A stretch of 64,000 bases of DNA from a virus (Duplodnaviria; Caudoviricetes): IMG/VR virus record IMGVR_UViG_3300017763_003980; one strand, 5' to 3'. Both the position numbers and the translations under genes were made by a program. The notes beneath the pieces are model-generated. The model made no database searches. It was not told the DNA's origin and worked only from the letters and a program-made list of their open reading frames with translations. Each line of letters starts with the position of its first letter. Within the stretch, counting starts at the first letter, position 1. Positions 49 to 32,845 of this stretch are shown here, one piece after another.

Positions 49-76
49 TTGACTTTTTAACATTCTATGCTATAAT
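49..76 (+). promoter_or_regulatory. sigma70-type promoter
   Basis: TTGACT(49-54)-N16-TATAAT(71-76) with TGn extended -10; upstream of ORF 145 (AGGAG RBS). Confidence 0.75.
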
Positions 77-16158: not shown

Positions 16159-17393
16159 ATAAAACTCCTTGGTGCATGGATCCGTTCATTCAAATGGCCC
16201 ATACTGCTGATGGGTTTTTTAGAGTATGTTGTATTGGAGAAGTACATAGAGAACGCACTGATCTTAATACTAAAGAAATGACTCCTTTGGAATACTGGAA
16301 CAGCGATGTTAGTAAACAGATTCGATCGGATATGTTAAAGCCTATAGAAGAATTTAGCGACATCACAAAATATGCATGTAGTCAATGTTTAAAAAATAAT
16401 AGAGATGGTGTACGCAGTCGCAGACAAACGGAAAATGTAAGGTACCAAGATAATAAAAAAGCAAAAATAAATGTTATAAAACATTTAAAAAATATTGATT
16501 ACACGTATGATGACTTACTATATGTAAATTTTAAAGTATTAGGAAATATTTGTAATTTAAAATGCGTAATGTGTAGTGCAAATGCAAGTAGTAAAATTGC
16601 TGCAGAAGCAAAACAGCATTACGGATTTCCTCGAGGATGGAGTGCAGGCGACAAAGCAGAACTAGAACCGTTTACTCCTGATACACGTAATGACTATTTT
16701 ACAGAATTACAAAAAATAATTGACAGTATTCCAAAATTTAATTTAGTCGGCGGCGAAAATTTAATACATCCTGATTTCCCTCGTCTGTTCCAAATGTTTA
16801 TAGACAGCCCAAATATCAGTAATATTGATATGCTAATTATTACCAATGGAACAATAGTACCGGATATTGTGCAAGACAATGCACATTTATTTAAAAGTAT
16901 GACTATACTAATAAGTATGGACGGTGTTTATGAAAGAGGTTCATATGTGCGTTCAGGACTCAATTGGAAAAAGTTTGATACTAACGTAAGAAAATTTGCT
17001 AGTAATCCTCATGTATTTTTAAGACTAGTGCCAGCAATACAAATGCTTAATGCAGGATATGTTAAAGAAATGCATGAATGGATAGAGTCTGTAGGCCTAG
17101 ATCCTAAGATGTCGATAGATTGGAATAATGTTGTTACATATCCTGAAACTTTACGTGCAATTAATTTACCTAAAGAAATAAAACAAGAATATATGCGTAA
17201 GATGATAGGACCTGATATAACACACCCGTCAATACGAGTAGTTTTCGATATACTAAAACAGCCTCAATATAGTCACAAAGAGTTCCTTGAGGGACTTAAA
17301 TACTTACGTAAATTAGATAAAATTCGGAACACAAATCTACTAGAACATTTTCCTGAGTTTGAGCAGTATATAGGAGATATAGATGATAACTAA
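16155..17393 (+). CDS. radical SAM protein with N-terminal twitch/SPASM-like Cys set
   Basis: CNLKCVMC, VGGEN; N-terminal C...CC...CSQC. Confidence 0.85.
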   Translation: MNKTPWCMDPFIQMAHTADGFFRVCCIGEVHRERTDLNTKEMTPLEYWNSDVSKQIRSDMLKPIEEFSDITKYACSQCLKNNRDGVRSRRQTENVRYQDNKKAKINVIKHLKNIDYTYDDLLYVNFKVLGNICNLKCVMCSANASSKIAAEAKQHYGFPRGWSAGDKAELEPFTPDTRNDYFTELQKIIDSIPKFNLVGGENLIHPDFPRLFQMFIDSPNISNIDMLIITNGTIVPDIVQDNAHLFKSMTILISMDGVYERGSYVRSGLNWKKFDTNVRKFASNPHVFLRLVPAIQMLNAGYVKEMHEWIESVGLDPKMSIDWNNVVTYPETLRAINLPKEIKQEYMRKMIGPDITHPSIRVVFDILKQPQYSHKEFLEGLKYLRKLDKIRNTNLLEHFPEFEQYIGDIDDN

Positions 17394-18105
17394 CGAAGAA
17401 AAAGCAGAACTAGCAAAGTTCAGCTATTTAGAAGCTTTTAGAGATGGTACATTACCTGCCCCTAAAATAATGGATTTAGTTTGCGAAAGTCAGTTAGCTG
17501 CACTAGGTGATTTTGTACCATTAAAAGTAAAGATAAAATTAGGTGAATTTAGAAACGAAATAAAAAAATATGACGGTAAATGGGTGCCGTATCTGCCGCG
17601 AGAAGGTGAATTAAATGATAGACAAGGACTTAACTATATAGGGTTAGAAGGAGACACACCTTTTGATAGCATTAGTCTTCCTGAAGCAAGAAAACGCACA
17701 GGGAAAAAATTAGTAGAAATTGACTTTAGTACTAAAACACAACTATATAATGATTTACCAAGTCTGAAAGCAATTACAGATGTTTGGCCAGACCCTTGTC
17801 GTTGTACACTAGTAAAAGTTAATAAAGGTGGCTGGTTTCCTTATCATCGTGATAGTGTGTTATTAAATAGAAGAACATTTAGAATAATTGCATTTCTTAC
17901 AAATACTGGCGCAGAGTGTTATCAATGGGAGCATGACTATACAATGCGTACAATTGAAGAAGGAAGATGCTATTATGTAAACACACAATTAGCTCATAGA
18001 ACCCATAGTTATGTACCCGATAGCATACACCTAGTAATGAATATACCAAAAACACTTGAAAATGTTTTTAGGGTAATGGACATACTAAAGCACGGCGAAA
18101 CATAA
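17383..18105 (+). CDS. 2OG-Fe(II) oxygenase (AspH-like)
   Basis: FPYHRD (HxD) ... NTQLAHRT distal His, IHLVMN. Confidence 0.65.
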   Translation: MITNEEKAELAKFSYLEAFRDGTLPAPKIMDLVCESQLAALGDFVPLKVKIKLGEFRNEIKKYDGKWVPYLPREGELNDRQGLNYIGLEGDTPFDSISLPEARKRTGKKLVEIDFSTKTQLYNDLPSLKAITDVWPDPCRCTLVKVNKGGWFPYHRDSVLLNRRTFRIIAFLTNTGAECYQWEHDYTMRTIEEGRCYYVNTQLAHRTHSYVPDSIHLVMNIPKTLENVFRVMDILKHGET

Positions 18106-18842
18106 TGGGCATAGTTACTAAAACTATTCGACGTGATCAACACATACATAAACTAAAAGAAAGAATGTCACCTGCTTATAGTATAGAAAATTTTTTATCT
18201 ACACAGGAGTTAAATGATCTATATAGTTTGTGGAACAGCAAACAGGAATGTGCTATTACAAAAAACACTGGTCCTATTACAGTAAATTTAAAAGACATTC
18301 GCGATTCTGATATTATTAAGTGTGTAATAAAAAAAATACAAAAACAAATTGGTGATGAATGTAGATGTTGGGGAGGACAATTTTTCTATACTAATGTTCC
18401 TTATGTAATACATAACGACGATGATTCACACACATTTCCAGATGCATTTAAAGCTGTTAGTATGCCTATTAAAGTGTGGCCTGAAGATAAAGAAAGTTCA
18501 TTAACTGAATTAGTATGTTTTGAACAAGCATATTTTGAAGGACCGTCAAAGTTTTTTAATGGTGGTCCTGAGCAAGAAACATATTATAATGTTGCTGTAT
18601 ATGATTATGAATATGTGCATAACTTAAAAGAACAATCAATACCAAAGATAATAACAGATAAATTGTTGCCACATCTAAAAACAGAATGGTTACAAGGATT
18701 AAGTATAGATAATAAATTTAAATGGCAATTAGGCAACGCAATAGTTTTTGACTCTCTTAAATTACATGCAAGTACAGATTTTAGAAAAAAAGGTATAGAA
18801 GGAAAGTTAGGATTAAGTTTATTTTTTGAGAAGGCACTATGA
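18105..18842 (+). CDS. 2OG-Fe(II) oxygenase-like protein
   Basis: YVIHND (HxD) ... FDSLKLHAS. Confidence 0.6.
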   Translation: MGIVTKTIRRDQHIHKLKERMSPAYSIENFLSTQELNDLYSLWNSKQECAITKNTGPITVNLKDIRDSDIIKCVIKKIQKQIGDECRCWGGQFFYTNVPYVIHNDDDSHTFPDAFKAVSMPIKVWPEDKESSLTELVCFEQAYFEGPSKFFNGGPEQETYYNVAVYDYEYVHNLKEQSIPKIITDKLLPHLKTEWLQGLSIDNKFKWQLGNAIVFDSLKLHASTDFRKKGIEGKLGLSLFFEKAL

Positions 18843-19402
18843 GATTAGAAACTTTTACACAAAAAACTATAAATGATAGACAACACGATGCACTAGTTAG
18901 TTTATCTCAGTATGCAAGTACACTTAATGATCCTGCTGCAAAAAATTATGCTGTAGATGATTGGGAAGAAAGAACAGACACTTTATTATATGCTTTTTAC
19001 AAGAAAAAAAGATTTGATATATTTAATATACTATATCATAAAGACACACCTATAGCAATGGCAGGAGCATATGTTTTTAATCATCAACCAATAATAGGAG
19101 TAAGAACATTTACGCATCCAGACTTTAGAGGCGGCGGACATTGGTGCCAAGCAAGATACATACTTCCTGCACAAATAGATTACTATGATGAACAAAATTA
19201 TAAAACAGTTTGGCTTACATTTAACGACTACAATACACGGCTAGTAAATTTTATCAAACGCATAAGTGAAGGCCGATCATCTCACCTAGGAGGCGGTCCG
19301 AAAAAGATATATCAAAATCTTACTTGGCACGATGAACCAAAAACAGTACAGTATACAAAGCAAATAATTGCTGAATTAAAAATATCAGATTATAAAAAAT
19401 GA
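18839..19402 (+). CDS. GNAT-like acyltransferase
   Basis: IGVRTFTHPDFRGGG resembles the acetyl-CoA-binding motif A. Confidence 0.5.
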   Translation: MRLETFTQKTINDRQHDALVSLSQYASTLNDPAAKNYAVDDWEERTDTLLYAFYKKKRFDIFNILYHKDTPIAMAGAYVFNHQPIIGVRTFTHPDFRGGGHWCQARYILPAQIDYYDEQNYKTVWLTFNDYNTRLVNFIKRISEGRSSHLGGGPKKIYQNLTWHDEPKTVQYTKQIIAELKISDYKK

Positions 19403-19881
19403 AATTAATTAAAATTAAAAAAATTTCAGGAAGTCGAGAAAGAAGAGTATACAAATATAAAACACATTATAGAAAACATTGGAACTTCGCTAGTAATAAG
19501 TTTGCAACAAGATTGCCAATAAAAGAGCATGTAGAAATGGTAAACAAACTAGTTCCTGGATATATTTTAGGATATAAAGTTTTAAAGAAATGTATGTGGA
19601 TAGACTACAATATAGTTCCAGGTATTCCTGCATCGGACATGACTGTGTTTCCAAGAACTCCAGAATTTATTACAAAAGTATATAACTTTTGTATTGACAA
19701 TATTAGAGAAACAGCACCATATGCTCACTATGATTGGTCATTAGATAACATAATTATTGATGGTGATAATTTACAATTAATAGATTGGGATCTTTGTGCA
19801 ATTTACACAGACCAAGAAATTAAAGAAAGATTTGAATCACAGTATATTGGTCAGCTGTACTCCAAACTTCACAGTTCTTAA
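19399..19881 (+). CDS. small APH/protein-kinase-like phosphotransferase
   Basis: HYDWSLDN catalytic loop and LIDWD metal-binding motif. Confidence 0.65.
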   Translation: MKLIKIKKISGSRERRVYKYKTHYRKHWNFASNKFATRLPIKEHVEMVNKLVPGYILGYKVLKKCMWIDYNIVPGIPASDMTVFPRTPEFITKVYNFCIDNIRETAPYAHYDWSLDNIIIDGDNLQLIDWDLCAIYTDQEIKERFESQYIGQLYSKLHSS

Positions 19882-19899
19882 AACTTAAAAGATTGATTG

Positions 19900-19906
19900 A
19901 TAAATA
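19900..19906 (+). promoter_or_regulatory. late-promoter-like box ATAAATA, 5 nt before ATG 19912
   Basis: Resembles T4 late TATAAATA; no SD before the ATG. Confidence 0.55.
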
Positions 19907-19911
19907 TATAT

Positions 19912-20682
19912 ATGATAAAAGATATATTTAGATCTAACACACAGCTTTTTCCGGTAGGGCAATTAGTAAGTACAATCACGTTGCTTTATATGCTATATCT
20001 TACAGCACTAGGCTCGGTTGCTCCACAATGGTGGTTAGCAAGTCTTGCGATGTATTTTTGCACAGGTTGTCTAGGAATTACTATTACATATCATAGATAT
20101 CTAACACATAGAAGCTTTAAGTATCGTTACAAATGGATGGAATATGTATTTTCGTTTTTTGGAGCGATGGGAGGTACAGGTAGTTCAATAGGTTGGGTAG
20201 CTGTGCATAATGAACATCATAAGCACACAGATAAAGATGGTGATCCTCATTCACCACACTTAGGTTTTTGGAATGTTATAATTCCAAGATATACATTTGA
20301 TATGAATAAATTTGCTGTAAGACACTTAGTAACTAACAAGTTTCATTTAGCACTACATAATTATTACTACTTAATAATGCTAGCTTGGATAGGACTACTA
20401 TATATAATAGGTGGCGCTAACTTATCTATATTTGTTGGTGTTATTCCGGTCGCAATTCAAATATGGGCAAGTGTAATGAGTAACTATGGTAATCATACTT
20501 GGGGATATAGGAATTTTGAGACTAAAGAAGAAAGCAAAAATACATGGTGGCTTGCAATATTAACTTTCGGAGAAGGATGGCACAATAATCATCATGCTAA
20601 ACCTGGTAGATGGAACTTTTCTCATAAATGGTGGGAAATAGATATGAGTGCTTGGGTTATACGATTATTAAAAACATCTTAA
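19912..20682 (+). CDS. membrane fatty-acid desaturase (delta-9 acyl-lipid/acyl-CoA type)
   Basis: His boxes HRYLTH, HNEHH, HNNHH; GDPHSP; GEGWHNNHH; hydrophobic segments. Confidence 0.9.
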   Translation: MIKDIFRSNTQLFPVGQLVSTITLLYMLYLTALGSVAPQWWLASLAMYFCTGCLGITITYHRYLTHRSFKYRYKWMEYVFSFFGAMGGTGSSIGWVAVHNEHHKHTDKDGDPHSPHLGFWNVIIPRYTFDMNKFAVRHLVTNKFHLALHNYYYLIMLAWIGLLYIIGGANLSIFVGVIPVAIQIWASVMSNYGNHTWGYRNFETKEESKNTWWLAILTFGEGWHNNHHAKPGRWNFSHKWWEIDMSAWVIRLLKTS

Positions 20683-20688
20683 TTAATA

Positions 20689-22152
20689 ATGTATCATGTT
20701 ATTATCTTTACAGGTATACTTCAAAGTCCCAGTTCTATCTTTAAACCCCTCGGCGCATATCGTATACGCACAGAACTAGAATCTCAAGGTTATAATGTAA
20801 AAGTTATAGACCATTATCATAATTTAACCGAAGAACATATACAAAAAGCATTTGAAAAATATGTTGGAAAAGAAACATTATGGGTCGGTTTTAGCACTAC
20901 CTTTCTAAATACAACAACTTTACTTGCAGACAGATCTCATTTTTATATGAGATTAAGAAAAAAATATAATGTTCCTATAGTTATTGGCGGCGCAAAAGCT
21001 ATGGTAGAATTTTTGCCATGGGCTGACATTTTCATTACTGGATATGCTGATGATGCAGTTGTATCTGTAACTAATCATTTAGCACAAAAAGGTAGCACTC
21101 CTAAATGGAAAGATTACAAAGGTAAAAAAATTATTGACAGCAATCATGAATATGATAGAAAAGATTTATCTAACATAGGAGTAGTTTGGAAAGCAGAAGA
21201 TGGTATAAGTCCAACTCAAGCACTACCTATGGAAATAGCTAGAGGTTGTATTTTTAATTGTGCGTTTTGTAATTTTCCGTTGAATAATAAATCTAAATTT
21301 GATTATGTTCGAGTAAAAGAAGATATGACAAACGAGTTTTTACGTAACTACGAACAATTCGGTACTACTTACTATTGTTTTATGGATGATACATATAATG
21401 ATAGCATGAAAAAATTAGAATTAATGCATGATGTAATAACTAATTTACCTTTCAAAATTAAGTTCGATACATATATTAAACCAGAATTATTAGCAACATG
21501 GCCCGACCAAGCTGATCTTTTAGTAGAAACTGGACTAGTAGGAGCAAGCTTAGGACTTGAAACACTTAACAGAGATGCAAGACAAGCTATCCAAAAGGGC
21601 AAGAATATAGAAAAAGTATTAGAATCTATTGATAAACTTAAAGAAAAGAATAACGGACAAGTAAAAATACAATGTAATATGATTGTAGGCCTTCCGCATG
21701 AATCAGCTCAAAGTATTTGGAAATCTCACGAACAAATTATTAATAATAAAAGCATTGATTGGTGGAACTGGTATCCATTACAAATACATTCAAAAGATCA
21801 TCATGAATATCATTCTCCTATCGATAGAAATCCAGAAAAGTTTGGCTACAAAATAAGTCAAACAAAATTAATAAAAAATAATAGGGTAGACACTAACTAT
21901 TGGCTTACAGACTGGAATAATGAACATATGAATTCTGACATGGCAGGAATGTTATCTGTGAAGTTGCGAAGTATGGCTCAACAACACGTTAAAGTAGCAG
22001 GATGGAACTGTAGTAGTTTTGAAAGTCTAGGATTAGACTTAGATGAACATTACAGTACGCATGAAGGATTAGTGCAAAATATGCCTATTGAAGATATGAA
22101 AATAAAAAAACAAAAAATAGTAGACGACTACATTCACAATGTAATAATGTAA
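20689..22152 (+). CDS. B12-binding radical SAM protein (class B methyltransferase-like)
   Basis: PLGAYRI...GYNVKVID N-terminal domain, IVIGG, EIARGCIFNCAFC, FMDDT, LGLET, IVGLPHE. Confidence 0.8.
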   Translation: MYHVIIFTGILQSPSSIFKPLGAYRIRTELESQGYNVKVIDHYHNLTEEHIQKAFEKYVGKETLWVGFSTTFLNTTTLLADRSHFYMRLRKKYNVPIVIGGAKAMVEFLPWADIFITGYADDAVVSVTNHLAQKGSTPKWKDYKGKKIIDSNHEYDRKDLSNIGVVWKAEDGISPTQALPMEIARGCIFNCAFCNFPLNNKSKFDYVRVKEDMTNEFLRNYEQFGTTYYCFMDDTYNDSMKKLELMHDVITNLPFKIKFDTYIKPELLATWPDQADLLVETGLVGASLGLETLNRDARQAIQKGKNIEKVLESIDKLKEKNNGQVKIQCNMIVGLPHESAQSIWKSHEQIINNKSIDWWNWYPLQIHSKDHHEYHSPIDRNPEKFGYKISQTKLIKNNRVDTNYWLTDWNNEHMNSDMAGMLSVKLRSMAQQHVKVAGWNCSSFESLGLDLDEHYSTHEGLVQNMPIEDMKIKKQKIVDDYIHNVIM

Positions 22153-22745
22153 TCTTTAAATTTCTTTAAGCTCATTTTTAAAATTTGACGATGCTTTATA
22201 ATATCTAACTCTCCAGAAATAGTCATAATTATTTTTCTGTCTGGATCAGTAGGCAAATCAGAAGCATGTAAGGCATCATAGTTATTTACAGCAAACCATT
22301 TTGTTAAATTGTTAGGATGTTTTATATACAATTTATCTTCAATATCTTTATCTTTTTGAAAATACATTAACGGTTTATCGTATACCATGAATGCTTTATA
22401 AGAGTCTGGTTGATCATTACTATTAATTGTTGCCTGTGAAGTCCTATCTCGGTGTAGCATACAAGGTATTTTTTGTTCTAAAAAATTTATATATGTAATA
22501 TCAGTAAATGGCAAATAATTTTCTACTATATGTTTTAAATTAGGTATTACCTTTAGTAGACTTTCATTCCATCCACTTTCTTTTTGGTATGCAAAACTTA
22601 CCAACCAAGGAGAAATAAAATCTTTTGTACAATGTCCAATGTTGTTTGTAGTACGTTTACGATTAGCTTCATGCCATGTTATAAATTGTTGCCTGTCAAA
22701 CTCGACCTCCGGTAAGTTAATTGGAGTATATAAAGCTAGTACCAT
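22134..22745 (-). CDS. 2OG-Fe(II) oxygenase-like protein
   Basis: MLHRD (HxD) ... NNYDALHAS, RKII. Confidence 0.55.
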   Translation of the reverse strand: MVLALYTPINLPEVEFDRQQFITWHEANRKRTTNNIGHCTKDFISPWLVSFAYQKESGWNESLLKVIPNLKHIVENYLPFTDITYINFLEQKIPCMLHRDRTSQATINSNDQPDSYKAFMVYDKPLMYFQKDKDIEDKLYIKHPNNLTKWFAVNNYDALHASDLPTDPDRKIIMTISGELDIIKHRQILKMSLKKFKDYIITL

Positions 22746-23443
22746 ATTTGGTATTCCTTATGCTTTTGTGTACTATCATTAAATAGTTTATATAATCTCT
22801 CCTTATCATATTCTCCTATTATCACACAGGTTATTCTACTACCAGTTGGAGTAGGATTTTCATCTAAGCCATGCCATGCTCTATAACTGTTAAGCATCCA
22901 GGCACATCGATCTTTCGGAAATTTAGCATAAATTTTTTCATCTCTACAAAAGTCTAAATGATTGCGCCTTTCTTTCAAAGGAGTACCGTCATCATCTTCC
23001 ATAGTACGTATCCTATGATTATGTGGTTCCTTCATCCTACTAAAGTAGAGTGCTTCCTTTGTTTTATTTTTTAAATAAAATCTCATCCCCCAACAATCGT
23101 CTGGATCACTATGCGGTGCAACTTTTGCTCCTCCAATTTGATTCAGGAAGCTTATACTTTTCATTTGTTTGAATGGAAATAAATTTAGATATTCAACTAA
23201 TTCTGGAAAGCGTTTATCAAATCCACATATCCAAGGCTCCTCAGTTTTATATGTATTCCACCATTTAGCCCAACTTATATGCCAACAATATCCTCCGTAT
23301 AAATTTGTACTGTTAACTTTATTTTGATTGTGTTTAAGCATGTAAGATTTTTGTTCGCTATGCCATGCTACAAACTCATCCATATCAACCTCAGGTGGGC
23401 CAGGGAGGTCTAGTGGCGAGAATATTAAATTTTTCCAATCCAT
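22736..23443 (-). CDS. 2OG-Fe(II) oxygenase (AspH-like)
   Basis: VAPHSD (HxD) ... NSYRAWHG, SRITC. Confidence 0.6.
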   Translation of the reverse strand: MDWKNLIFSPLDLPGPPEVDMDEFVAWHSEQKSYMLKHNQNKVNSTNLYGGYCWHISWAKWWNTYKTEEPWICGFDKRFPELVEYLNLFPFKQMKSISFLNQIGGAKVAPHSDPDDCWGMRFYLKNKTKEALYFSRMKEPHNHRIRTMEDDDGTPLKERRNHLDFCRDEKIYAKFPKDRCAWMLNSYRAWHGLDENPTPTGSRITCVIIGEYDKERLYKLFNDSTQKHKEYQIWY

Positions 23444-24118
23444 TTATTTCTTTCTACCAAATATTCTTATTTGTACTCTAGGTGAAAATATTTCTGTTGT
23501 ACAGTGCGGCAAACTATCGTCGAAGTGCCAGCATTTATATTTTGATTCGTCTACTTCAAACATTTCATTGCCTACTCTATACTGTAAGTGGCCGCCTCCG
23601 TCAGAAACATTTAGCGTGATAGCAACACCGCCATTTTTAAAGTATAACAAATTATCTCTATGTCTAGCATCGGCATGTACTATACCTTTGCTAGGTGGAG
23701 TTTGGCCTACAAGCCTAACACAACTAATGTATTCTAAATTAAATTTATTAACAATGTCAATCAAGCTTTGTGGCGCATCATCTTTCCAAGTCCATGCAGT
23801 ATCATATACATGCCATATAGGACTTCTTCCTCTAAATGTTTCCAAGTAACATGTATTTGAAGTTTCTGGTATACCCGGTATATGTGTGAAGTTATAGTTT
23901 ACAAATGTTTTATATTTGTTTTCTACTAAGTTACGATTGTCATCATAATGAGTTACATCATCGTACTTTTCAAAATAACCATCTTTGTCATAATTACTTC
24001 GTCCGTCAGTGTAAATAACTGTAGCAAGAAAGCTTTCGTCAAACATATTTGTTGACATTAGATCGTTATAAAGGCTTTGTTGATCAAAGTCAACATCTAT
24101 AGGTTCAAAAGCATTCAT
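23444..24118 (-). CDS. 2OG-Fe(II) oxygenase-like protein
   Basis: IVHAD ... FDDSLPHC, RVQIR; start moved to ATG 24118. Confidence 0.6.
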   Translation of the reverse strand: MNAFEPIDVDFDQQSLYNDLMSTNMFDESFLATVIYTDGRSNYDKDGYFEKYDDVTHYDDNRNLVENKYKTFVNYNFTHIPGIPETSNTCYLETFRGRSPIWHVYDTAWTWKDDAPQSLIDIVNKFNLEYISCVRLVGQTPPSKGIVHADARHRDNLLYFKNGGVAITLNVSDGGGHLQYRVGNEMFEVDESKYKCWHFDDSLPHCTTEIFSPRVQIRIFGRKK

Positions 24119-24123
24119 AATAA

Positions 24124-24130
24124 TACTTAT
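24124..24130 (-). promoter_or_regulatory. late-promoter-like box ATAAGTA, 5 nt before ATG 24118
   Basis: Same spacing as the other ATAAATA-N5-ATG sites. Confidence 0.45.
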
Positions 24131-24142
24131 CTGGAAGTCTTT

Positions 24143-25018
24143 ATGTCTATAAACTATCTGACACACAATAATTATTTTACTACATCTGGTCACGGAAAAG
24201 ACTGGACAGTACATTTAAAATCAGTTACACAAACGCCTAATTCTTGGTTTACTGAAAGTATAAGGTCGGCACAACTAATTAAAGAATCTGCAGATAGTCC
24301 TTTAGTGCTATTATTCAGCGGTGGACTAGATAGTGAATACATGCTTAATATTTTTAGACATGCTGGAATAGATTTTAAAGTTGCAATTATTAGCTATGGT
24401 GATTATAACATACACGACAATAAGCATGCATTCGAATATTGCAAAGCACACGGTATTGAACCTATAGTTATAGATATAGATATGGATTGGTTTATAAACA
24501 GCGGGAAAATAATTGAAATAGCTAATTTAGCTAAATGCTGTGCTTACCAAATTCCTAGTATTATGCACGGAATATCACAAATAGACGGCACAGTTATAAT
24601 GGCCAACGGAGAACCATATGTAAAAAACTTTGATGGAGATTGGCGCTGGGAAGAAACTGAACGTGTAAACAGCTATATGAATTGGTTTTCTTTGTTGCAT
24701 CTTGAAGGCACTCCAGATTTTCTAAGATACACTCCAGAAATGACAGTAAGTTTTTTAATGGAACCTAGAGTAATACAGCTAGTAAATAATGAACATCCTG
24801 GCAAGCTTAGTACTCGTACAAGTAAACATATGATATATACCCAGCACTTAAAAATGTCTAAACGAGCAAAATTTACAGGTTGGGAAAAACTAGAAAAACT
24901 TCCAATAATGCAACATGAATTATTTAAAGAATTTGATTTATTGAAAGAAAAGTATAATGGAGTTTTTGAACTAGGTTATAACGACCTTGTTGATGAGCTG
25001 TTAAAGTACGGAACCTGA
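24143..25018 (+). CDS. PP-loop (adenine nucleotide alpha hydrolase) ATPase-like protein
   Basis: LLFSGGLDSE PP-loop; start moved to ATG 24143. Confidence 0.65.
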   Translation: MSINYLTHNNYFTTSGHGKDWTVHLKSVTQTPNSWFTESIRSAQLIKESADSPLVLLFSGGLDSEYMLNIFRHAGIDFKVAIISYGDYNIHDNKHAFEYCKAHGIEPIVIDIDMDWFINSGKIIEIANLAKCCAYQIPSIMHGISQIDGTVIMANGEPYVKNFDGDWRWEETERVNSYMNWFSLLHLEGTPDFLRYTPEMTVSFLMEPRVIQLVNNEHPGKLSTRTSKHMIYTQHLKMSKRAKFTGWEKLEKLPIMQHELFKEFDLLKEKYNGVFELGYNDLVDELLKYGT

Positions 25019-25414
25019 GACACCAGATCCATTTTCGTAGTTAGGATCTAATTCTGTTTTCCTTGCATGTTCTACATACGTTTCATCTCGTTCAGCAGCA
25101 AAAGTAGCAAATTCATCAAACGTTATATCTTCTACAATTGTGTCTACGTGCCCTGTTGCTGATTCTAGATAAGCACGATGAGGAGCAAAATTACTTACTG
25201 ATGTTTCCGAGTCTAAAATAAACACACAATTAATATTTTCGCCTTCGTGTTCATAATTTCTAAACCAAATGTCACCGTTTTCAGTCATAGTTTTTAGGCC
25301 ATTAAACATATTGGCATATGCTGTTTTGTCATTATCTAATTCATCAATAATTTCAGTAACAAATTGTGTAATACGTCTTCCATTATGCGGATATCTAATA
25401 GTGACTTTTTTCAT
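25001..25414 (-). CDS. hypothetical protein
   Basis: 137 aa ORF with AAGGAG RBS. Confidence 0.7.
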   Translation of the reverse strand: MKKVTIRYPHNGRRITQFVTEIIDELDNDKTAYANMFNGLKTMTENGDIWFRNYEHEGENINCVFILDSETSVSNFAPHRAYLESATGHVDTIVEDITFDEFATFAAERDETYVEHARKTELDPNYENGSGVSGSVL

Positions 25415-25432
25415 GTTTACTCCTTATGCTAG

Positions 25433-25449
25433 TATTTATCAGTTAAATA
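25433..25449. promoter_or_regulatory. back-to-back late-promoter-like boxes
   Basis: ATAAATA on minus (25433-25439) and TTAAATA on plus (25443-25449, 5 nt before ATG 25455). Confidence 0.5.
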
Positions 25450-25454
25450 TATTT

Positions 25455-26153
25455 ATGTTAAACAAATTAGGATATGAAATATTAAGTAATGCATTCGATC
25501 CAACTGCATTACTTTCTGCGAGTAATGATGTGCTAGAAAAAAGAACTCAATCGTTTATATACGAAAATGATGGAAGTATAAGAAGTGTATTCGCACCACA
25601 TTGGTATAACAAGGATGTGAAAGATTTTGTATACGATAATCCAGCAATAGCTAATGTAAAAGAAGTATTAGTTGATGATATTTATGTACATCAAGTACAC
25701 TTTAATTATAAGCTAGCAGGGGTCGGTGGCGAGTATGCATGGCACAGTGATTATACATATTGGCATCATTATGACGGTATGCCAAATCCAGATGCTATTA
25801 GTGTATTGTATCTTTTAGATGATATGACTAGTATAAATGGGCCACTAGAAGTATTAGAAGGTAGTCATCTGGATCCTGTTGAAGAACCACCAAAAGGCAA
25901 CTGGACTATAAAGCATAATAGCACAGAGATACCTAATAATACACCGTCTAAGAACGCATATAAGCGTCATACAGTAACAGGCAAAGCTGGGGATATCATA
26001 TTGATGCATGCAAATTTAAAGCATGCTAGCACGGCAAATAAGAGCCATAAAAATAGAAAAGTGCTATTTGTATGCTATAATACGGTAAAAAACGCCACGA
26101 CAGGCGCCGTAAGACCTGATTATATTACACTAAAAGATTTTACGCCTGTTTAA
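25455..26153 (+). CDS. phytanoyl-CoA dioxygenase/EctD-like 2OG-Fe(II) hydroxylase
   Basis: YAWHSDYTYWHHYDGMP, LDD..SINGPLEVLEGSH, LKHAS..N, RKV; start ATG 25455. Confidence 0.8.
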   Translation: MLNKLGYEILSNAFDPTALLSASNDVLEKRTQSFIYENDGSIRSVFAPHWYNKDVKDFVYDNPAIANVKEVLVDDIYVHQVHFNYKLAGVGGEYAWHSDYTYWHHYDGMPNPDAISVLYLLDDMTSINGPLEVLEGSHLDPVEEPPKGNWTIKHNSTEIPNNTPSKNAYKRHTVTGKAGDIILMHANLKHASTANKSHKNRKVLFVCYNTVKNATTGAVRPDYITLKDFTPV

Positions 26154-27285
26154 CTACGTTGATGTGTGCTAGTACGTTTTTCCACTTTAACTCGGCATCT
26201 AAGAGCCTTTTATCTGTAGTTATAGCGTAACCATTTAATCCGACTAGCATATCCAAACGTCTAAGATATTGTTGTGAATTAGGCATGGATAGTTCATTAT
26301 ATTCAGCACCTTCCTTCATGCTTATATTGTATTTTCCTTTTTCAAGATTGAAGTGTCTGAATACTACAGCTTTGTCTAGTTGTACTCTAAGGTCTGATTT
26401 GCATGTAATACTATCCATTACAATTCTATTGTAATCACAGTCTGCTGAATATTTTATTATAGTTTGTCCACTAGTGCTTAACCTTGGACTAAAATCTACT
26501 AGATAAGGTACTTCATCTCTAACAACAAAGTCAGCCATAAAAGGACCATTATCGTATCCTATGCTTTCGCACATTATTCTGCAATATTCTTTTATATCTG
26601 ATTGTACTGGTGTGCTAGATTTACTAGGCCATGTGAATCCTGTTTCTGCTCTATATGGAAGATCACTTATTTCAATATCATATATACAGTCTAAAATAAA
26701 TTTCCCATTTACTATTCTGCCCGATACACTTACTGTTGGTCCTTCTATATATTCTTGGAATATATAACCTGCATCTAAATCATTATAGTGTATGTCATCT
26801 AAAAAATAACGGTATTGACTCCAATTTTCAAGAACCTTTATACCGATGCCGCCTGTACCGTTTGCAGGTTTTGCTACTACAGGGAATGTTTTACGTAAAG
26901 ATGTGTGAGTCATTGGTACTGGTATACCAATATTGTAAGCATGTGCAGTATAATTTTCTTTGTTTGATAGTATATTACATTGTTCTTTTGTGATACCGAC
27001 TAGGTCGTGTATGTAAGGAAGCAACATGTCGTTATATAAGGGAAATATATAATCTATATTATTTTCATTTATAATTTTACGTAACTGATTAGCAAGGTCT
27101 GATCTATCTTTAGCTTTAATAGCATAGTGTTCTATACCGTCAGGAACACTAGGTATCATTTTATCTAGCAATGGAAATTGAGAGTTAGTATTTGCTTGCC
27201 AAGTACATAGTTTGTAATTTGTTAGTTCTTGTAGGGTATACCTTAAATTATTGCTTTGGTAATTTATAATTACTTTAGGCTCCAT
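26140..27285 (-). CDS. ATP-grasp ligase
   Basis: VVAKPANGTGGIGI, IFQEYIEG, FMADF, LVDFSPRLS. Confidence 0.8.
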   Translation of the reverse strand: MEPKVIINYQSNNLRYTLQELTNYKLCTWQANTNSQFPLLDKMIPSVPDGIEHYAIKAKDRSDLANQLRKIINENNIDYIFPLYNDMLLPYIHDLVGITKEQCNILSNKENYTAHAYNIGIPVPMTHTSLRKTFPVVAKPANGTGGIGIKVLENWSQYRYFLDDIHYNDLDAGYIFQEYIEGPTVSVSGRIVNGKFILDCIYDIEISDLPYRAETGFTWPSKSSTPVQSDIKEYCRIMCESIGYDNGPFMADFVVRDEVPYLVDFSPRLSTSGQTIIKYSADCDYNRIVMDSITCKSDLRVQLDKAVVFRHFNLEKGKYNISMKEGAEYNELSMPNSQQYLRRLDMLVGLNGYAITTDKRLLDAELKWKNVLAHINVVKQA

Positions 27286-27895
27286 AAGTAATTTTATCCC
27301 TCATAATAGTATTGGTATACTTTATTTTCATAGTAATAAATCTTATAGTAGAATCATATGGTAAGGGTTTGTTGCCTAAGCAATAGTCATACAACTTATT
27401 ACCAGTTAAATGGCCAGCTTTGACAAAAGCAGCATCTGTAACATTATATTTTTCTTCATATATTGAAGCATACTTCTTACCATACTTTGAAACATCTAAG
27501 CCTTGTACATTATGTGTATTTCTTTCTTTGTTTGCTCTTTCAATGTCTTCACTGCGTACCCAAAAAAATCCCCATTTGCCTCGAGACTCACATTCATTTA
27601 ATTGGAATTGCATTACTTTCAAAATGTTTCTAAAATTAGCAAAATGGCTTTGGTCTTTTCTTGCCAGTAATGTATCACATAACACCCACGGCATATTTGG
27701 TAAATCTTCGCCTGCAACAATTGCTTGTATTTCTTTATTTTTTAATACAGCATAAATGTGTCTATTAGGTTCTATAAATTTTATATTTTGCCAATGAAAA
27801 TCGTTCTGTAAATTATGTGATTTAATTTGGTCGTTTATAAAATTAAAGAATAAATCTTTATGATCAGGCGTTAATTTGATACATTCATCAATCAT
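27275..27895 (-). CDS. hypothetical protein (possibly GNAT-like)
   Basis: 206 aa ORF coupled between panD and the ATP-grasp gene; HIYAV...IQAIVAG pattern only weakly GNAT-like. Confidence 0.55.
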   Translation of the reverse strand: MIDECIKLTPDHKDLFFNFINDQIKSHNLQNDFHWQNIKFIEPNRHIYAVLKNKEIQAIVAGEDLPNMPWVLCDTLLARKDQSHFANFRNILKVMQFQLNECESRGKWGFFWVRSEDIERANKERNTHNVQGLDVSKYGKKYASIYEEKYNVTDAAFVKAGHLTGNKLYDYCLGNKPLPYDSTIRFITMKIKYTNTIMRDKITYGA

Positions 27896-28232
27896 AGTTT
27901 ATAGTCTTTTCAATAGTATTGTACTTATTTGTGTATATTACTGTAGCTCCATCAAATTGAAAAGAAGTAGTATAACTAAGGACTACACATGGATCTCCTA
28001 TTTCGCCTAATCTTGCACCACCGCCGTTTAGTTCAAACACACCTTTGTTTCCTGGAATTACATATGTAGTCCAACGGTCACCGGTATTCATATTTACAAT
28101 ATCAACTTTTTGATACGGATCAAGATCAACTTTAGACATTAAATCACGACAGATAGTTACACTACCATCGTAGTCTAACGATTTATCAGTAACATGAATA
28201 TTTTGAATTTTAGATTGGATATACTCTCTCAT
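27888..28232 (-). CDS. panD: aspartate 1-decarboxylase (pyruvoyl-dependent)
   Basis: SKIQNIHVTDKSLDYDG|SVTI self-cleavage site, NMNTGDRWTTYVI, LNGGGAR, GD..VVLSY. Confidence 0.92.
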   Translation of the reverse strand: MREYIQSKIQNIHVTDKSLDYDGSVTICRDLMSKVDLDPYQKVDIVNMNTGDRWTTYVIPGNKGVFELNGGGARLGEIGDPCVVLSYTTSFQFDGATVIYTNKYNTIEKTINYD

Positions 28233-28238
28233 AGTACT

Positions 28239-28267
28239 ATTGTACTATAAAAAATTTGTGTTGTCAA
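28239..28267 (-). promoter_or_regulatory. sigma70-type promoter of the panD operon (leaderless)
   Basis: TTGACA-N17-TACAAT; -10 ends 6 nt before the panD ATG. Confidence 0.7.
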
Positions 28268-28271
28268 CCTA

Positions 28272-29801
28272 TTAGTTTAAGTCTACCCAAGCTGAGCCAG
28301 TATAGCCTTGGAATTTAGTGCCAGTACTATTAAAGATTATCATACCTGCAGCTGGTGTTGTTACAGCCGCTGACCTTGCAGTATCGTCAGCAACTACTTT
28401 AAGCTGGATTGCTCCACTAAATGATGCTACAGAATCTGTTTGTGCAATTTGTAGCACTACAGTTTGATCGCCATTTGCTGCTGAATTGTATAATTCAATA
28501 TTTGTTGGTATTCTGTTTGCCTCTGGAGCTGCCGAAGCAAGGAATCTAATACCTCCTGAGGCCCTATAAGCTGTACCGTTATATCCAGCTGCTGCATATG
28601 CTCCGAGTTGATCACCCGATTGTACTGCTGTTGGTGCAGCCTTTGTACCTCTAGATCTTAATGCACCATATGTACTTCCGTAGCCTGCATCAGAAGCATG
28701 AAATGTTCTTATTGTTGTTGTACCTTGTGTGACAGCGTCATTATAAACACCAAGTGTTCTGTTGTTGCCTGTGTCTGTAACACCGCCAACTTGTGAACTT
28801 CTGCCTAATACTATCGATCCAGCAGTATTTTCAGTAGTGATTGTAAAAACATTACTTTCAGTATTTTGCTCTAAGAACATTGTATTCTTACTAGTAGCTG
28901 AAGTTAGTTTAATATTGCCAGCTAGTACGCCTAATTGTGTACTAACTTGTCCAGTAATCTTATTGTTAATACCATCTACAAGTAATGAACTATCTTCACC
29001 AAACACACTACCGCTCATAGTACCAAGTAATTGACCATTTACAGTACCGTTAAATACTGCATTAAAACTATCTAATATCTTAGACGAGTCATCAGTTGAG
29101 CTGAATATATCACCTTGTATATCACCTAACCATTGGCCTGTAGCTTTATCAAATACCTTCCTTAAACCAAGATCAAAAATGTCACCTTGGAAATTACCAA
29201 TAATATCACCGGTAAACAATTTAGTAGTTGGATTATATGCTGTTGTTCCATCACCGGCTTCGATGGTCATATTTTTAACAGTGCTAGTACTTGTATCAAC
29301 TAGCTGGGTGCCATCAAGTTTGTATAAATCTCCGCCATATACATCGCCCATAAGTCTATTATTATCATGATCAACTAATAAACTACTATTGTTTCCTACA
29401 ATACTTAATCTAATCTGTGAGTCTTTTAATTGTTCAACTTTAAAGTTACTTCCATCATGTATCAGGATCTGACCCCAACCCGGGCCACCATCTGGATATA
29501 TTACATCGTCATGATTATTTAAATTGCCTAGTGTTGCACCTGCAGGGTTTACTGCTGTCCAATAGTTGTCGCTTGAAGACCATGCTAAAACTTGCCCATC
29601 ACTAATGCTACCCAGTGTAACATCATTTAAATCATTTAGTGATGATGCGCCACCGCCGCTTCCTTGTACTACAACACCGCCAGCAGTTGTACCATCACCA
29701 ACATATAACGACTTTGTATCAGTTGTGTAGATAAGTTCGCCCGCTGCTGGTGTAATAAGCTGACGCTCAGCGTTGGTACCTCGTCTTAGCCTTAATGCCA
29801 T
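28272..29801 (-). CDS. tail fibre / virion structural protein with Mtd_N-like N-terminus
   Basis: MALRLRRGT..ER....PAAGELIYTTDTKSLYVGDG, LNDLNDV repeats, G/T/S-rich, C-terminal GMIIFN...FQGY..SAWVDL. Confidence 0.7.
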   Translation of the reverse strand: MALRLRRGTNAERQLITPAAGELIYTTDTKSLYVGDGTTAGGVVVQGSGGGASSLNDLNDVTLGSISDGQVLAWSSSDNYWTAVNPAGATLGNLNNHDDVIYPDGGPGWGQILIHDGSNFKVEQLKDSQIRLSIVGNNSSLLVDHDNNRLMGDVYGGDLYKLDGTQLVDTSTSTVKNMTIEAGDGTTAYNPTTKLFTGDIIGNFQGDIFDLGLRKVFDKATGQWLGDIQGDIFSSTDDSSKILDSFNAVFNGTVNGQLLGTMSGSVFGEDSSLLVDGINNKITGQVSTQLGVLAGNIKLTSATSKNTMFLEQNTESNVFTITTENTAGSIVLGRSSQVGGVTDTGNNRTLGVYNDAVTQGTTTIRTFHASDAGYGSTYGALRSRGTKAAPTAVQSGDQLGAYAAAGYNGTAYRASGGIRFLASAAPEANRIPTNIELYNSAANGDQTVVLQIAQTDSVASFSGAIQLKVVADDTARSAAVTTPAAGMIIFNSTGTKFQGYTGSAWVDLN

Positions 29802-29833: not shown

Positions 29834-29841
29834 TATTTATA
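29834..29841 (-). promoter_or_regulatory. T4-type late promoter TATAAATA
   Basis: Exact T4 late consensus upstream of the tail-fibre gene (AGGAG RBS). Confidence 0.65.
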
Positions 29842-31103: not shown

Positions 31104-31385
31104 TTAGGTATACTTTAAATGTGGACAAGCCAACATAAAGTAACTCATTTCTTTGGTTTCTTCGAAGCCAATAGTAATTACCTGATTAACTTTGTTGTCG
31201 TTATCTAAAGTGACTTTCCTACCAATATAATAACGGTTACGAAGATTAGAGTCAATCCAATTAGATAAACTTTCTTCTATATTATAAGATGATGGTAGAT
31301 TTACGTATTCAAAATAAGGAATAGGTGTTTTAACCTTCCTTATTCCAAATACATCATATGGATTTGGTTTTTTATTTTTTATCAT
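31104..31385 (-). CDS. hypothetical protein
   Basis: 93 aa ORF, ATGA overlap with the VWA gene. Confidence 0.7.
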   Translation of the reverse strand: MIKNKKPNPYDVFGIRKVKTPIPYFEYVNLPSSYNIEESLSNWIDSNLRNRYYIGRKVTLDNDNKVNQVITIGFEETKEMSYFMLACPHLKYT

Positions 31386-32740: not shown

Positions 32741-32775
32741 TGTGCTTATACCCTCTTTTCTAACTTTATATACTT

Positions 32776-32803
32776 ATTATAACATCTATACATAGTTTGT
32801 CAA
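32776..32803 (-). promoter_or_regulatory. sigma70-type promoter
   Basis: TTGACA-N16-TATAAT upstream of the VWA gene. Confidence 0.7.
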
Positions 32804-32812
32804 CCGAAAAGA

Positions 32813-32838
32813 ATGGAGGGGGCGTTAACCCCCTCCAT
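32813..32838 (-). terminator. Rho-independent terminator after the MoxR gene
   Basis: 10-bp stem ATGGAGGGGG/CCCCCTCCAT, 6-nt loop, followed by TCTTTT on the minus strand. Confidence 0.8.
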
Positions 32839-32845
32839 AATTACA

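What the first reader, a model, noticed from the sequence alone, without database searches (positions are those of the whole stretch)
17383..28232. Natural-product-like tailoring cluster in a phage, next to a tail-fibre gene
Seen: within about 11 kb, six 2OG-Fe(II) oxygenases, a GNAT, a kinase, a desaturase, a B12 radical SAM, a PP-loop ATPase, an ATP-grasp ligase and PanD. Known: such hydroxylase, ligase and methylase mixes typify small-molecule or peptide biosynthetic clusters. Inference: a phage pathway making an unusual amide-linked, hydroxylated, methylated substituent or metabolite, for virion decoration or host manipulation.
Basis: inference. Interest (0 to 1): 0.7.

Follow-up and report, generated by a model that had tools for sequence, protein, structure and literature searches.

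The report
Phage acyl-amide tailoring enzyme island
A very abundant, uncultured giant ocean phage carries, beside a tail-fibre gene, a block of oxygenases, a membrane fatty-acid desaturase, a B12 radical SAM enzyme and two ATP-using ligases; a core of these genes recurs together in distant aquatic phages, so it probably edits a fatty-acyl compound whose identity and target are unknown.

Summary
The genes are real and the enzyme calls are mostly right. Desaturase, B12 radical SAM, PP-loop ATPase, ATP-grasp ligase, PanD and one PhyH/EctD-like oxygenase are solid. Three more oxygenases (A, G, H) are supported by fold, one (I) by motif and language-model features, and one (B) by motif only. The GNAT call is borderline. 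The 'kinase' is weak and is found only in this strain.

The refutation test fails. The scaffold is kept in every related contig examined (about a dozen distinct contigs, 35-92% aa identity). C, E, F, J, M and AspH-like oxygenases also recur in shuffled order in distant phage lineages. There they sit with an acyl carrier protein, FabF, a fatty-acid hydroxylase and Rieske oxygenases.

My reading is a fatty-acyl tailoring and amide-forming cassette, extended in this clade by an early-promoter PanD-N-ATP-grasp operon. No scaffold synthase, carrier or exporter lies in the window, and the product and target are untested.

The start coordinate is arbitrary: A-F are the tail of a 22-kb early operon that begins with glycan enzymes.

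The island type is published: the pelagimyophage host recognition cluster and the Syn9 dioxygenase arrays. An isolated SAR11 phage, Mosig, has a smaller version. This scan had already found the same cassette on other DNA, in freshwater giant phages.

The parts
49..76 (+). Sigma70-type promoter (TTGACT-N16-TATAAT), followed by a hairpin and a Shine-Dalgarno site, in front of the 22-kb + strand gene string 145-22152 that ends with genes A-F
   Evidence: Sequence read; gene string with overlaps or tiny gaps
17383..18105 (+). A: AspH-like Fe(II)/2OG oxygenase-fold protein
   Evidence: invariant HxD..H, fold hits only to 2OG oxygenases, homologue of the Mosig Asp_Arg_Hydrox gene at 4e-25
18105..18842 (+). 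B: member of a large marine-virus family with no named domain; the oxygenase call rests on an invariant HxD..H..K motif only
18839..19402 (+). C: GNAT-like (acyl)transferase candidate; recurs with E, J and M in distant phages
19399..19881 (+). D: minimal kinase-like ORF (HxDxxxxN..IDWD), a single-gene insertion absent from all relatives
19897..20682 (+). E: membrane Delta9-type fatty-acid desaturase homologue
   Evidence: Mosig homologue
20689..22152 (+). F: B12-binding (class B) radical SAM enzyme
   Evidence: best NCBIfam matches are a lipid-biosynthesis B12/rSAM model and PhpK-type methyltransferases, both below cutoff
22134..24118 (-). I-H-G operon: three soluble oxygenase-fold proteins (G and H are paralogues); among the most conserved genes of the island (48-92% identity)
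   Evidence: promoter-like sites
24143..25018 (+). J: PP-loop ATPase (SGGxDS), a candidate adenylating or amide-forming enzyme; the family was found only on phage contigs
25001..25414 (-). K: 137-aa acidic protein of unknown family, fast-evolving
25433..25456 (-). Two T4-type late-promoter motifs (ATAAATA) upstream of K, conserved in relatives
   Evidence: the motif occurs only 11 times in the 64-kb window
25455..26153 (+). L: PhyH-family, ectoine-hydroxylase-like Fe(II)/2OG oxygenase
26140..28232 (-). PanD (O) - N (unknown, 206 aa) - ATP-grasp ligase (M) operon with overlapping genes
28239..28267 (-). Sigma70-type promoter TTGACA-N17-TACAAT in front of PanD, conserved in 5 loci; the -10 element ends 9 nt before the ATG
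28272..29801 (-). P: Mtd_N tail-fibre protein, always directly upstream of the PanD operon
29834..29841 (-). Canonical T4 late promoter TATAAATA upstream of fibre gene P, conserved in relatives

Best explanation
The region is the variable, enzyme-rich part of a tail-fibre-adjacent island of a giant marine T4-like phage. It contains a functionally linked cassette that edits a fatty-acyl chain and couples it through amide bonds.

Proposed roles, all inferred:
- E desaturates the acyl chain at the membrane.
- The AspH-like and PhyH-like oxygenases (A, G, H, I, L, possibly B) hydroxylate it.
- F methylates or rearranges an unactivated carbon.
- J (PP-loop) and M (ATP-grasp) activate carboxylates for amide formation.
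- C (GNAT-like) transfers an acyl or amino-acyl group.
- In this clade PanD supplies beta-alanine as a likely amine partner for M; alternatively it supplies beta-alanine for CoA/phosphopantetheine.

A-F are made from an early, host-polymerase-type promoter together with about 18 glycan-building genes. The end product may therefore be a glyco- or amino-lipid-like conjugate. It could change the infected cell's envelope, or it could be handed on to a virion protein.

Shown: the gene content, the conservation, the recurrent co-occurrence and the promoter motifs. Inferred: the substrate class, the reaction order, the use of beta-alanine and the destination of the product.
For: 1. Vertical conservation. 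The order A,B,C,E,F | G,H,I | J | K | L | M,N,O | P is kept in every related contig examined (about a dozen distinct contigs), down to 35-48% identity for M.

2. Independent co-occurrence.
- Of the ~9 distinct distant J loci (29-39% identity), 7 have E and/or F within 10 kb: L009 J-F-x-E-AspH; L010 seven E paralogues with FabF, Rieske, J and C; L022 fibre-J-F-F; L023; L024 with C, I, H, E, H, AspH and J; L026; L027.
- A distant M homologue (about 186 bits) lies in one co-directional string: C, FA_hydroxylase, M, E, ACP (with the GIDSLD motif), E, AspH, rSAM, F, Rieske, J.

3. An isolated SAR11 phage, Mosig, has the A homologue (4e-25) directly followed by the E homologue (7e-35). TauD, a methylase, a C homologue and AspH follow, just upstream of its tail fibres.

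4. Cassettes inserted inside the PanD-to-M operon in relatives belong to the same enzyme classes: desaturase, TauD, rSAM and AspH-like.

5. Catalytic motifs are intact and conserved in E, F, O, J and the oxygenase-like proteins.

6. From established knowledge, not tested here: bacterial AspH-family enzymes LpxO and OlsC hydroxylate lipid acyl chains, PhyH hydroxylates acyl-CoA, and viral Delta9 desaturases are active (Roitman 2018, PMC5776448).
Against: - No ACP, FabF, acyl-AMP ligase or thioesterase was detected in the 64-kb window (phmmer with the distant ACP found nothing), so a host carrier would be needed.
- All oxygenase-like proteins are predicted to be soluble, unlike LpxO.
- L is closest to ectoine hydroxylase, which acts on a small polar substrate.
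- PanD, N, K, L and B were found only in this clade, so their link to the recurrent core rests on synteny alone.
- Phage synteny can persist by descent without any shared function.
- J, K and L are single genes on alternating strands, which is typical of independently inserted morons.
- F's best family matches are far below their cutoffs.
- No biochemical data exist for any member.
Confidence: 0.45

Rival explanations
1. Virion-protein maturation. The oxygenases, ligases, GNAT and (in relatives) a sulfotransferase post-translationally modify the adjacent tail fibre P or the small late protein K. The modifications would be hydroxylation, then sulfation, acylation or amino-acid ligation, tuning host recognition.
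For: - Fibre gene P is always directly upstream of the PanD operon, and in two relatives a sulfotransferase sits between them.
- The Mosig cassette ends at its tail-fibre genes.
- K has conserved T4-type late promoters like P.
- K, M, N and B evolve as fast as the fibre (33-53% against 40-50% identity), while E-I and PanD stay mostly at 60-79%.
- Iyer et al. 2010 (PMC2938197) proposed that beta-hydroxylase, PhyH, sulfotransferase and acetyltransferase neighbourhoods modify co-encoded phage tail-collar or collagen-like proteins.
Against: - A membrane desaturase, and ACP, FabF and FA_hydroxylase in distant versions, do not fit a protein substrate.
- A-F and PanD-N-M carry early sigma70-type promoters, whereas P and K are late.
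- P has no Cys-rich EGF-like or collagen-like hydroxylation motif.
Confidence: 0.2
2. Hyperplastic-region cargo. The genes are separate auxiliary metabolic genes or morons that pile up where insertions are tolerated, between the tail-fibre/glycan block and the replication genes. Each acts alone on host metabolism: membrane fluidity, beta-alanine/CoA supply, osmolyte hydroxylation and so on.
For: - There are at least six transcription units, alternating strands and different promoter types.
- Single-gene and cassette gains and losses occur: D only here, H or N missing in L015, extra TauD, desaturase and rSAM elsewhere.
- The host recognition cluster is described as hypervariable (PMC7029224).
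- Single viral desaturases work alone (PMC5776448).
Against: - C, E, F, J, M and AspH-like genes are found together again in distant lineages in a different order.
- The J, M, H and I families have no hit in 50,697 isolated phage records, and J's only two hits among cellular genomes look like mis-binned phage contigs. They therefore do not look like host-derived metabolic genes.
Confidence: 0.17
3. Pure glycan or LPS tailoring. The region only finishes the sugar chain built by the upstream glycosyltransferase island, by amidating uronic acids, hydroxylating or methylating sugars and phosphorylating Kdo or heptose, with no acyl chemistry of its own.
For: - A-F are in one gene string with UDP-glucose dehydrogenase, DegT, a hexapeptide transferase and twitch radical SAM genes.
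- From established knowledge: ATP-grasp and PP-loop enzymes can amidate sugar carboxylates.
- D has a Kdo/WaaP-like kinase motif.
- L037 has glycosyltransferases beside the cassette.
Against: - Distant versions of the cassette occur without glycosyltransferases but with ACP, FabF and many desaturases.
- Desaturases have no known sugar substrates.
Confidence: 0.1
4. Diffusible small-molecule natural product. This would be a beta-alanine-containing, hydroxylated and methylated metabolite released to manipulate the host or its competitors.
For: - PanD plus an ATP-grasp ligase plus an EctD-like hydroxylase.
- A distant M homologue lies next to a tryptophan-halogenase-type gene.
- Iyer et al. 2010 suggested metabolite synthesis for cyanophage dioxygenase arrays.
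Against: No scaffold synthase, exporter or self-resistance gene was found in the window or in the related loci.
Confidence: 0.08

Closest known systems
Host recognition cluster (HRC) of pelagimyophages and cyanomyophages (Zaragoza-Solas et al. 2020, PMC7029224); concrete example in Pelagibacter phage Mosig EXVC030M, genes 00072-00081
   Same: - A large variable island with tail fibres, glycosyltransferase/LPS-type genes and radical SAM cassettes.
- Mosig has homologues of A, E and C, plus TauD, a methylase and a second AspH, directly upstream of its tail fibres.
   Different: - The HRC is a descriptive label with no assigned function.
- J, M, H and I have no tblastn hit in any isolated phage record, Mosig included; PanD's 15 phage-record hits do not include Mosig. 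F, G, K, L and N gave no HMM hit in the 18.5-kb Mosig locus scanned.
- The defining flanks (VrlC and neck gp14) were not seen. Here the island runs into replication genes.
Tandem multi-dioxygenase arrays of cyanophages (Syn9, 10 dioxygenases), and bacterial beta-hydroxylase/PhyH/sulfotransferase neighbourhoods with tail-collar proteins (Iyer et al. 2010, PMC2938197)
   Same: Several unrelated Fe/2OG oxygenase families clustered in a T4-like aquatic phage, with acetyltransferase, sulfotransferase and ATP-grasp partners and a fibre-type protein nearby.
   Different: - That paper does not mention desaturases (0 occurrences).
- Apart from L, the oxygenase-like proteins here reach no Pfam threshold.
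- The proposed substrates there are peptides or halogenated metabolites.
Cyanophage Delta9 lipid desaturases (vFAD; Roitman et al. 2018, PMC5776448)
   Same: E has the Delta9-type His boxes and transmembrane segments of a membrane acyl-lipid desaturase in a T4-like marine phage.
   Different: - At E <= 1e-5, E's only hits among phage records are Pelagibacter phage Mosig (30% identity) and two 'Acinetobacter phage' metagenome-derived records (28%); it hits no cyanophage record.
- E occurs with 1-8 paralogues and fixed partner genes, whereas vFAD is described as a single stand-alone gene.
Bacterial aminolipid and lipid A acyl-chain modification (OlsB GNAT-type N-acyltransferase; OlsC and LpxO of the AspH family; OlsE), from established knowledge
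   Same: The same enzyme classes act on one lipid: a GNAT-fold acyltransferase, an AspH-family acyl hydroxylase, an amide-linked amino acid and further hydroxylases.
   Different: - No detectable homology to OlsB, OlsA or OlsF.
- The oxygenase-like proteins are soluble.
- There are two ATP-dependent ligases and a B12 radical SAM enzyme with no counterpart in those pathways.
Thiotemplated desaturase cassettes (JamABC terminal alkyne; bacterial polyyne clusters). This is a lead from earlier scan notes and from memory; it was not tested here.
   Same: An ACP, an ATP-dependent activating enzyme and several membrane desaturases in one cassette, as in the distant loci L010 and L037/L038.
   Different: - The activating enzyme here is a PP-loop or ATP-grasp protein, not an acyl-AMP ligase.
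- This window has one desaturase and no ACP or thioesterase.

Membership tests
Fe(II)/2-oxoglutarate dioxygenase superfamily (A, B, G, H, I, L) | Double-stranded beta-helix fold | tested here: inconclusive
   - L: Pfam PhyH 7.5e-24.
- A: model pLDDT 72; the top 20 PDB hits are all 2OG oxygenases (E 1e-5 to 1e-3, TM 0.3-0.5).
- H: model pLDDT 59; hits are again 2OG/AspH-like, and the Atlas gives TM 0.58 to a viral Asp_Arg_Hydrox cluster.
- G: by paralogy to H.
- I and B: not folded.
Fe(II)/2-oxoglutarate dioxygenase superfamily (A, B, G, H, I, L) | HxD/E...H iron-binding triad conserved across homologues | tested here: met
   Invariant residues:
- A: H155, D157, H205/H208.
- B: H103, D105, H221 (20 sequences).
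- H: H111, D113, H191.
- G: H98, D100, H160.
- I: H148, D150, H205.
- L: H97, D99, H190.

The motif is short, so on its own it does not prove membership.
Fe(II)/2-oxoglutarate dioxygenase superfamily (A, B, G, H, I, L) | Significant match to a curated family model | tested here: not met
   Only L matches. A, B, G, H and I gave no Pfam, PHROG or NCBIfam hit. Profile searches of the PDB gave E >= 0.07.
Aspartate 1-decarboxylase PanD (O) | Pyruvoyl-forming Gly-Ser cleavage site and family-level sequence match | tested here: met
   - Pfam Asp_decarbox 3e-28, above its cutoff.
- NCBIfam panD scores 80 bits, below the equivalog cutoff of 106.
- The motif Y(D/H)GSVTI is conserved in all 5 loci.
- Activity was not tested.
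Class B (B12-binding) radical SAM enzymes (F) | N-terminal B12-binding domain plus the CxxxCxxC radical SAM core | tested here: met
   - Radical_SAM 1.7e-17.
- B12-binding 1.7e-4, below its cutoff.
- CIFNCAFC is conserved in 10 of 10 homologues.
- The subfamily is unresolved: the best matches, TIGR04072 and PhpK, are both about 73 bits against cutoffs of 360-600.
Delta9-type membrane fatty-acid desaturase (E) | Three His boxes (HxxxxH, HxxHH with DPH, HxxHH) and transmembrane segments | tested here: met
   The substrate and regiospecificity were not tested.
PP-loop ATP pyrophosphatase (J) | SGGxDS PP-loop motif in an N-terminal Rossmann-like domain | tested here: met
   FSGG(L/I)D(S/G) is invariant in 8 sequences. 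There are weak matches to QueC, TilS, AsnB, NadE and ArgG-related models (E 1e-4 to 0.02), and no subfamily could be assigned.
Self-contained natural-product biosynthetic gene cluster | A core scaffold enzyme or precursor (NRPS, PKS, terpene synthase or RiPP precursor) and export or resistance functions | tested here: not met
   None was found among the ORFs of at least 60-70 aa across window 1-33937. An ACP and FabF occur only in distant relatives.
Host recognition cluster (HRC) of T4-like aquatic myophages | Variable island lying between vrlC and the neck gene gp14, containing tail fibres and LPS-type genes | tested here: inconclusive
   Tail fibre, glycan genes and radical SAM cassettes are present. 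The right flank holds a DUF2201/VWA protein, an AAA ATPase, a nuclease, deazaguanine genes and the DNA polymerase rather than a neck gene. The left flank lies outside the window.
GNAT acyltransferase (C) | Significant match to a GNAT model or structure | tested here: inconclusive
   - Acetyltransf_1: 20.0 bits against a cutoff of 20.7, E 8.7e-4.
- A profile of 10 homologues hits only the GNAT structure 3t9y, at E 0.0055.
- The Mosig homologue is annotated as an N-acetyltransferase.

The most novel reading that the evidence does not exclude
Giant aquatic T4-like phages encode their own multi-enzyme lipid-type pathway. It takes a host-derived or ACP-bound fatty acyl chain, desaturates, hydroxylates and C-methylates it, and amide-links it. 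In this marine clade the amine would be phage-made beta-alanine. The resulting unusual amino- or glyco-lipid is either inserted into the infected cell's envelope or covalently attached to the neighbouring tail fibre. That would be a phage-specified lipid or a lipidated receptor-binding protein, for which I found no published description.
Probability: 0.22. Interest if true: 0.85.

Novelty: new variant of a known kind. Interest (0 to 1): 0.6.

Why it matters
This phage is very abundant and genetically stable. Near-identical DNA (at least 99% of sampled words) is present in 14 seawater metagenome runs from 11 studies, 2017-2025. Gene family B alone has more than 248 clusters at 90% identity.

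The tail-fibre-adjacent islands of SAR11- and cyanobacteria-type myophages have been catalogued since 2005-2020 without any function being assigned. Part of the island turns out to be a recurrent, rearrangeable cassette whose partners are ACP, FabF and fatty-acid hydroxylases. That turns 'hypervariable region full of oxygenases' into a testable hypothesis about phage-directed lipid or envelope chemistry. It also identifies Pelagibacter phage Mosig with host HTCC1062 as a cultured system holding a reduced version. Several of the protein families (B, G/H, I, J, K, N) have no named domain and would be new enzyme families if they prove active.

Tried and rejected
- Pfam, PHROG and NCBIfam scans gave nothing for A, B, G, H, I, K and N, or for their divergent orthologues.
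- Profile searches of PDB sequences with the small alignments of A, B, G/H, I, J and N gave only chance-level hits.
- hhalign comparisons among the A, B, G/H, I and N profiles were not significant. The exception was a weak match between B and G/H around the HxD strand.
- megablast of the region against 50,697 phage records found no match.
- tblastn of M, H, I and J against the same records found no match.
- The first IMG/VR scan with M as a single protein found nothing, because the patterns were too strict.
- Complex prediction for N with M gave no verdict (score 0.17, below the mark). This is not evidence either way.
- I considered N as a PanZ/PanM-like maturation factor for PanD (lead from PMC3398536). 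I dropped the idea because N stays next to M, not PanD, when cassettes are inserted, and N has no GNAT match.
- I considered K as a RiPP-type precursor because of its variable C-terminal tail. I dropped the idea because the tail shrinks to 0-3 residues in relatives.
- I considered J as the missing QueC of the phage's deazaguanine locus. The scores are far below the cutoff, and J's conserved partners are desaturases, rSAM and Rieske enzymes.
- The genome-contig scan for J found only two MAG contigs, and these look like mis-binned phage DNA.
- RNA-library contigs from three studies lie on E, J, K, PanD, P and others at 99-100% identity. These are contigs, the oligo-dT libraries cover nearly everything, and DNA carry-over cannot be excluded. 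I therefore draw no conclusion from covered or uncovered parts.

Full report
**What the window is.** The window has 29-39% G+C. It carries a T4-type DNA polymerase, deazaguanine genes and an Mtd_N tail fibre. No whole genome is held for it, and it matches no isolated phage at the DNA level. Close relatives sit on contigs of up to 335-338 kb, filed under bacterial MAG names. It is therefore an uncultured giant T4-like marine myophage. Near-identical DNA occurs in 14 seawater metagenome runs from 11 studies.

**Checking the observation: coordinates and boundaries.** All ORFs are present. Three long ORF calls overlap divergent neighbours. The likely starts are I 24118, J 24143 and L 25455. The 5' edge of the finding is arbitrary: A-F overlap or abut each other and the upstream twitch radical SAM genes. 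They belong to a + strand gene string from 145 to 22152, which begins with glycan enzymes: UDP-glucose dehydrogenase, DegT and a hexapeptide transferase.

**Checking the observation: enzyme calls.**
- The following are solid:
  - E, a Delta9-type membrane desaturase.
  - F, a B12 radical SAM enzyme.
  - L, a PhyH/EctD-like oxygenase.
  - M, an ATP-grasp ligase.
  - O, PanD with an intact Gly-Ser site.
  - J, through its PP-loop motif.
- Of the 'six 2OG oxygenases', only L reaches a curated threshold.
  - A is supported by an AlphaFold model whose PDB neighbours are exclusively Fe/2OG enzymes, and by homology to the AspH-annotated gene of phage Mosig.
  - G and H are paralogues. A low-confidence H model again finds only 2OG/AspH-like folds.
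  - I rests on an invariant HxD..H and on language-model similarity.
  - B rests on the motif and a weak profile match to G/H.
- C is a borderline GNAT.
- D is a weak kinase-like ORF absent from every relative.
- K and N are unclassified.

**Transcription architecture (sequence-level inference).**
- The T4 late motif is strongly depleted. TATAAATA occurs 2 times against 13.5 expected, and ATAAATA only 11 times in 64 kb.
- One copy sits 32 nt before fibre gene P and two sit before K. All are conserved in relatives.
- PanD-N-M has a TTGACA-N17-TAyAAT promoter conserved in five loci. Its -10 element ends 9 nt from the ATG, which implies a near-leaderless mRNA.
- The 22-kb + string starts behind TTGACT-N16-TATAAT.
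- The enzymes therefore look early, while P and K look late.
- I-H-G has a late-like ATAAATAC immediately before the ATG in four relatives, but ATAAGTAT in this window.

**The refutation test.**
- Vertical conservation. Five IMG/VR loci found with F, ten found with J, and ENA/Logan contigs found with M all keep the scaffold: fibre P, PanD, N, M | L | K | J | I, H, G | F, E, C, A/B.
- Identity to the window falls into tiers:
  - A, E, F, G, H, I and PanD: mostly 60-79% (G and F drop to 45-55% in the most divergent loci).
  - J, L and C: 49-72%.
  - B, K, M, N and the fibre: 33-53%.
- Within the PanD-to-M operon, relatives carry extra TauD, desaturase, radical SAM or AspH-like genes. Two relatives carry a sulfotransferase next to the fibre.
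- Independent co-occurrence around J. J homologues of only 29-39% identity lie beside F- and E-type genes (L009, L022, L023, L026). Others lie beside C, I, H and E (L024), or beside seven E paralogues, FabF, a Rieske oxygenase and C (L010). A Rieske oxygenase is J's direct neighbour in five loci.
- Independent co-occurrence around M. An exhaustive HMMER search with M found 48 representatives below 1e-30. One of them lies in a single string: C, FA_hydroxylase, M, E, ACP (GIDSLD motif), E, AspH, rSAM, F, Rieske, J.
- The genes therefore do not assort independently. C, E, F, J, M and AspH-like oxygenases behave as a linked set. PanD, N, K, L and B are additions found only in this clade (A also has a Mosig homologue), and D is found only in this strain.

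**Interpretation.** The recurrent partners are ACP, FabF, FA_hydroxylase and multiple membrane desaturases. Together with what AspH- and PhyH-family enzymes are known to do to acyl chains, they point to a fatty-acyl substrate. That substrate would be oxidatively tailored and amide-linked by the two ATP-dependent ligases, with beta-alanine from PanD as a likely amine in this clade. Co-transcription with a glycan operon suggests a glyco- or amino-lipid-like product. This remains inference:
- The window has no ACP.
- The oxygenase-like proteins appear soluble.
- L resembles ectoine hydroxylase.
- There is no biochemistry for any member.

The main rival reading is virion-protein modification. It is favoured by the fixed fibre adjacency, by the late gene K, by the fibre-like evolutionary rates of K, M, N and B, and by the published proposal of Iyer et al. 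2010. It is disfavoured by the membrane desaturase and the acyl-carrier partners.

**Comparison with what is known.**
- The island type is described as the host recognition cluster of pelagimyophages and cyanomyophages (PMC7029224; PMC12379486).
- Cyanophage tandem dioxygenase arrays are also described (PMC2938197).
- Single viral Delta9 desaturases have been shown to be active (PMC5776448).
- Pelagibacter phage Mosig holds a reduced version next to its tail fibres.
- The papers found by the five literature searches and read here do not describe the linked cassette, PanD with an ATP-grasp ligase in a phage, or any product.
- After I had reached the acyl reading, a look-up showed that this scan had reported the same kind of cassette in freshwater giant phages. 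Those notes agree with my reading but are not independent proof.

**Verdict.** This is a new variant of a known kind of phage island, of moderately high interest. The product and its target are open.

Noticed in passing
window 28233-28271 and 24119-24142: The PanD promoter's -10 hexamer ends 9 nt before the ATG and there is no Shine-Dalgarno site. The late-like motif before gene I in relatives is equally close. Both suggest near-leaderless mRNAs in this phage.
   Followed up: partly
whole window: The T4 late-promoter word is strongly avoided. TATAAATA occurs 2 times against 13.5 expected from shuffles, and ATAAATA occurs 11 times in 64 kb of AT-rich DNA. The few copies are therefore informative.
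   Followed up: partly
window 19399-19881: D is a 160-aa minimal kinase-like ORF (HYDWSLDN..LIDWD, similar to OspG or Kdo/WaaP-type kinases). It is inserted between C and E only in this strain; in relatives C and E are adjacent.
   Followed up: partly
L010 (JGI 3300023179 contig, 73 kb) 6551-20396: A freshwater phage contig carries at least seven desaturase paralogues together with FabF, a Rieske oxygenase, a cupin, and J and C homologues. This is an extreme expansion of membrane desaturases in a virus.
   Followed up: partly
L010, L011, L023, L026, L027: The PP-loop protein J is paired with a roughly 275-300-aa Rieske/Ring_hydroxyl_A oxygenase in five distant phage loci, usually convergent and overlapping. 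In this window K occupies that position instead.
   Followed up: partly
L022 10788-12324: In a distant relative a SET-domain protein and a class-III aminotransferase lie directly after the fibre-J pair.
   Followed up: no
window 10665-12273: The DegT/DnrJ-type aminotransferase match covers only a 199-aa ORF (profile positions 24-58 in its best stretch). The following 327-aa ORF has no family hit. This may be a split or highly diverged aminotransferase.
   Followed up: no
L039 (PBPT01000016.1, 335 kb) and L040 (JBDNIA010000282.1): Two contigs filed under bacterial MAGs (Neomarinimicrobiota and Crocinitomicaceae) carry the phage island at 57-70% identity for J. They are probably mis-binned giant-phage genomes.
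   Followed up: no
window 31382-33937: A DUF2201 metallopeptidase/VWA protein and a MoxR-type AAA ATPase (a CobT/CobS-like pair) follow the fibre block. They are 71-85% conserved in relatives.
   Followed up: no
L036 335-3089: A distant homologue of ATP-grasp M (203 bits) is translationally coupled to a tryptophan-halogenase-type flavoenzyme on a small marine contig.
   Followed up: no
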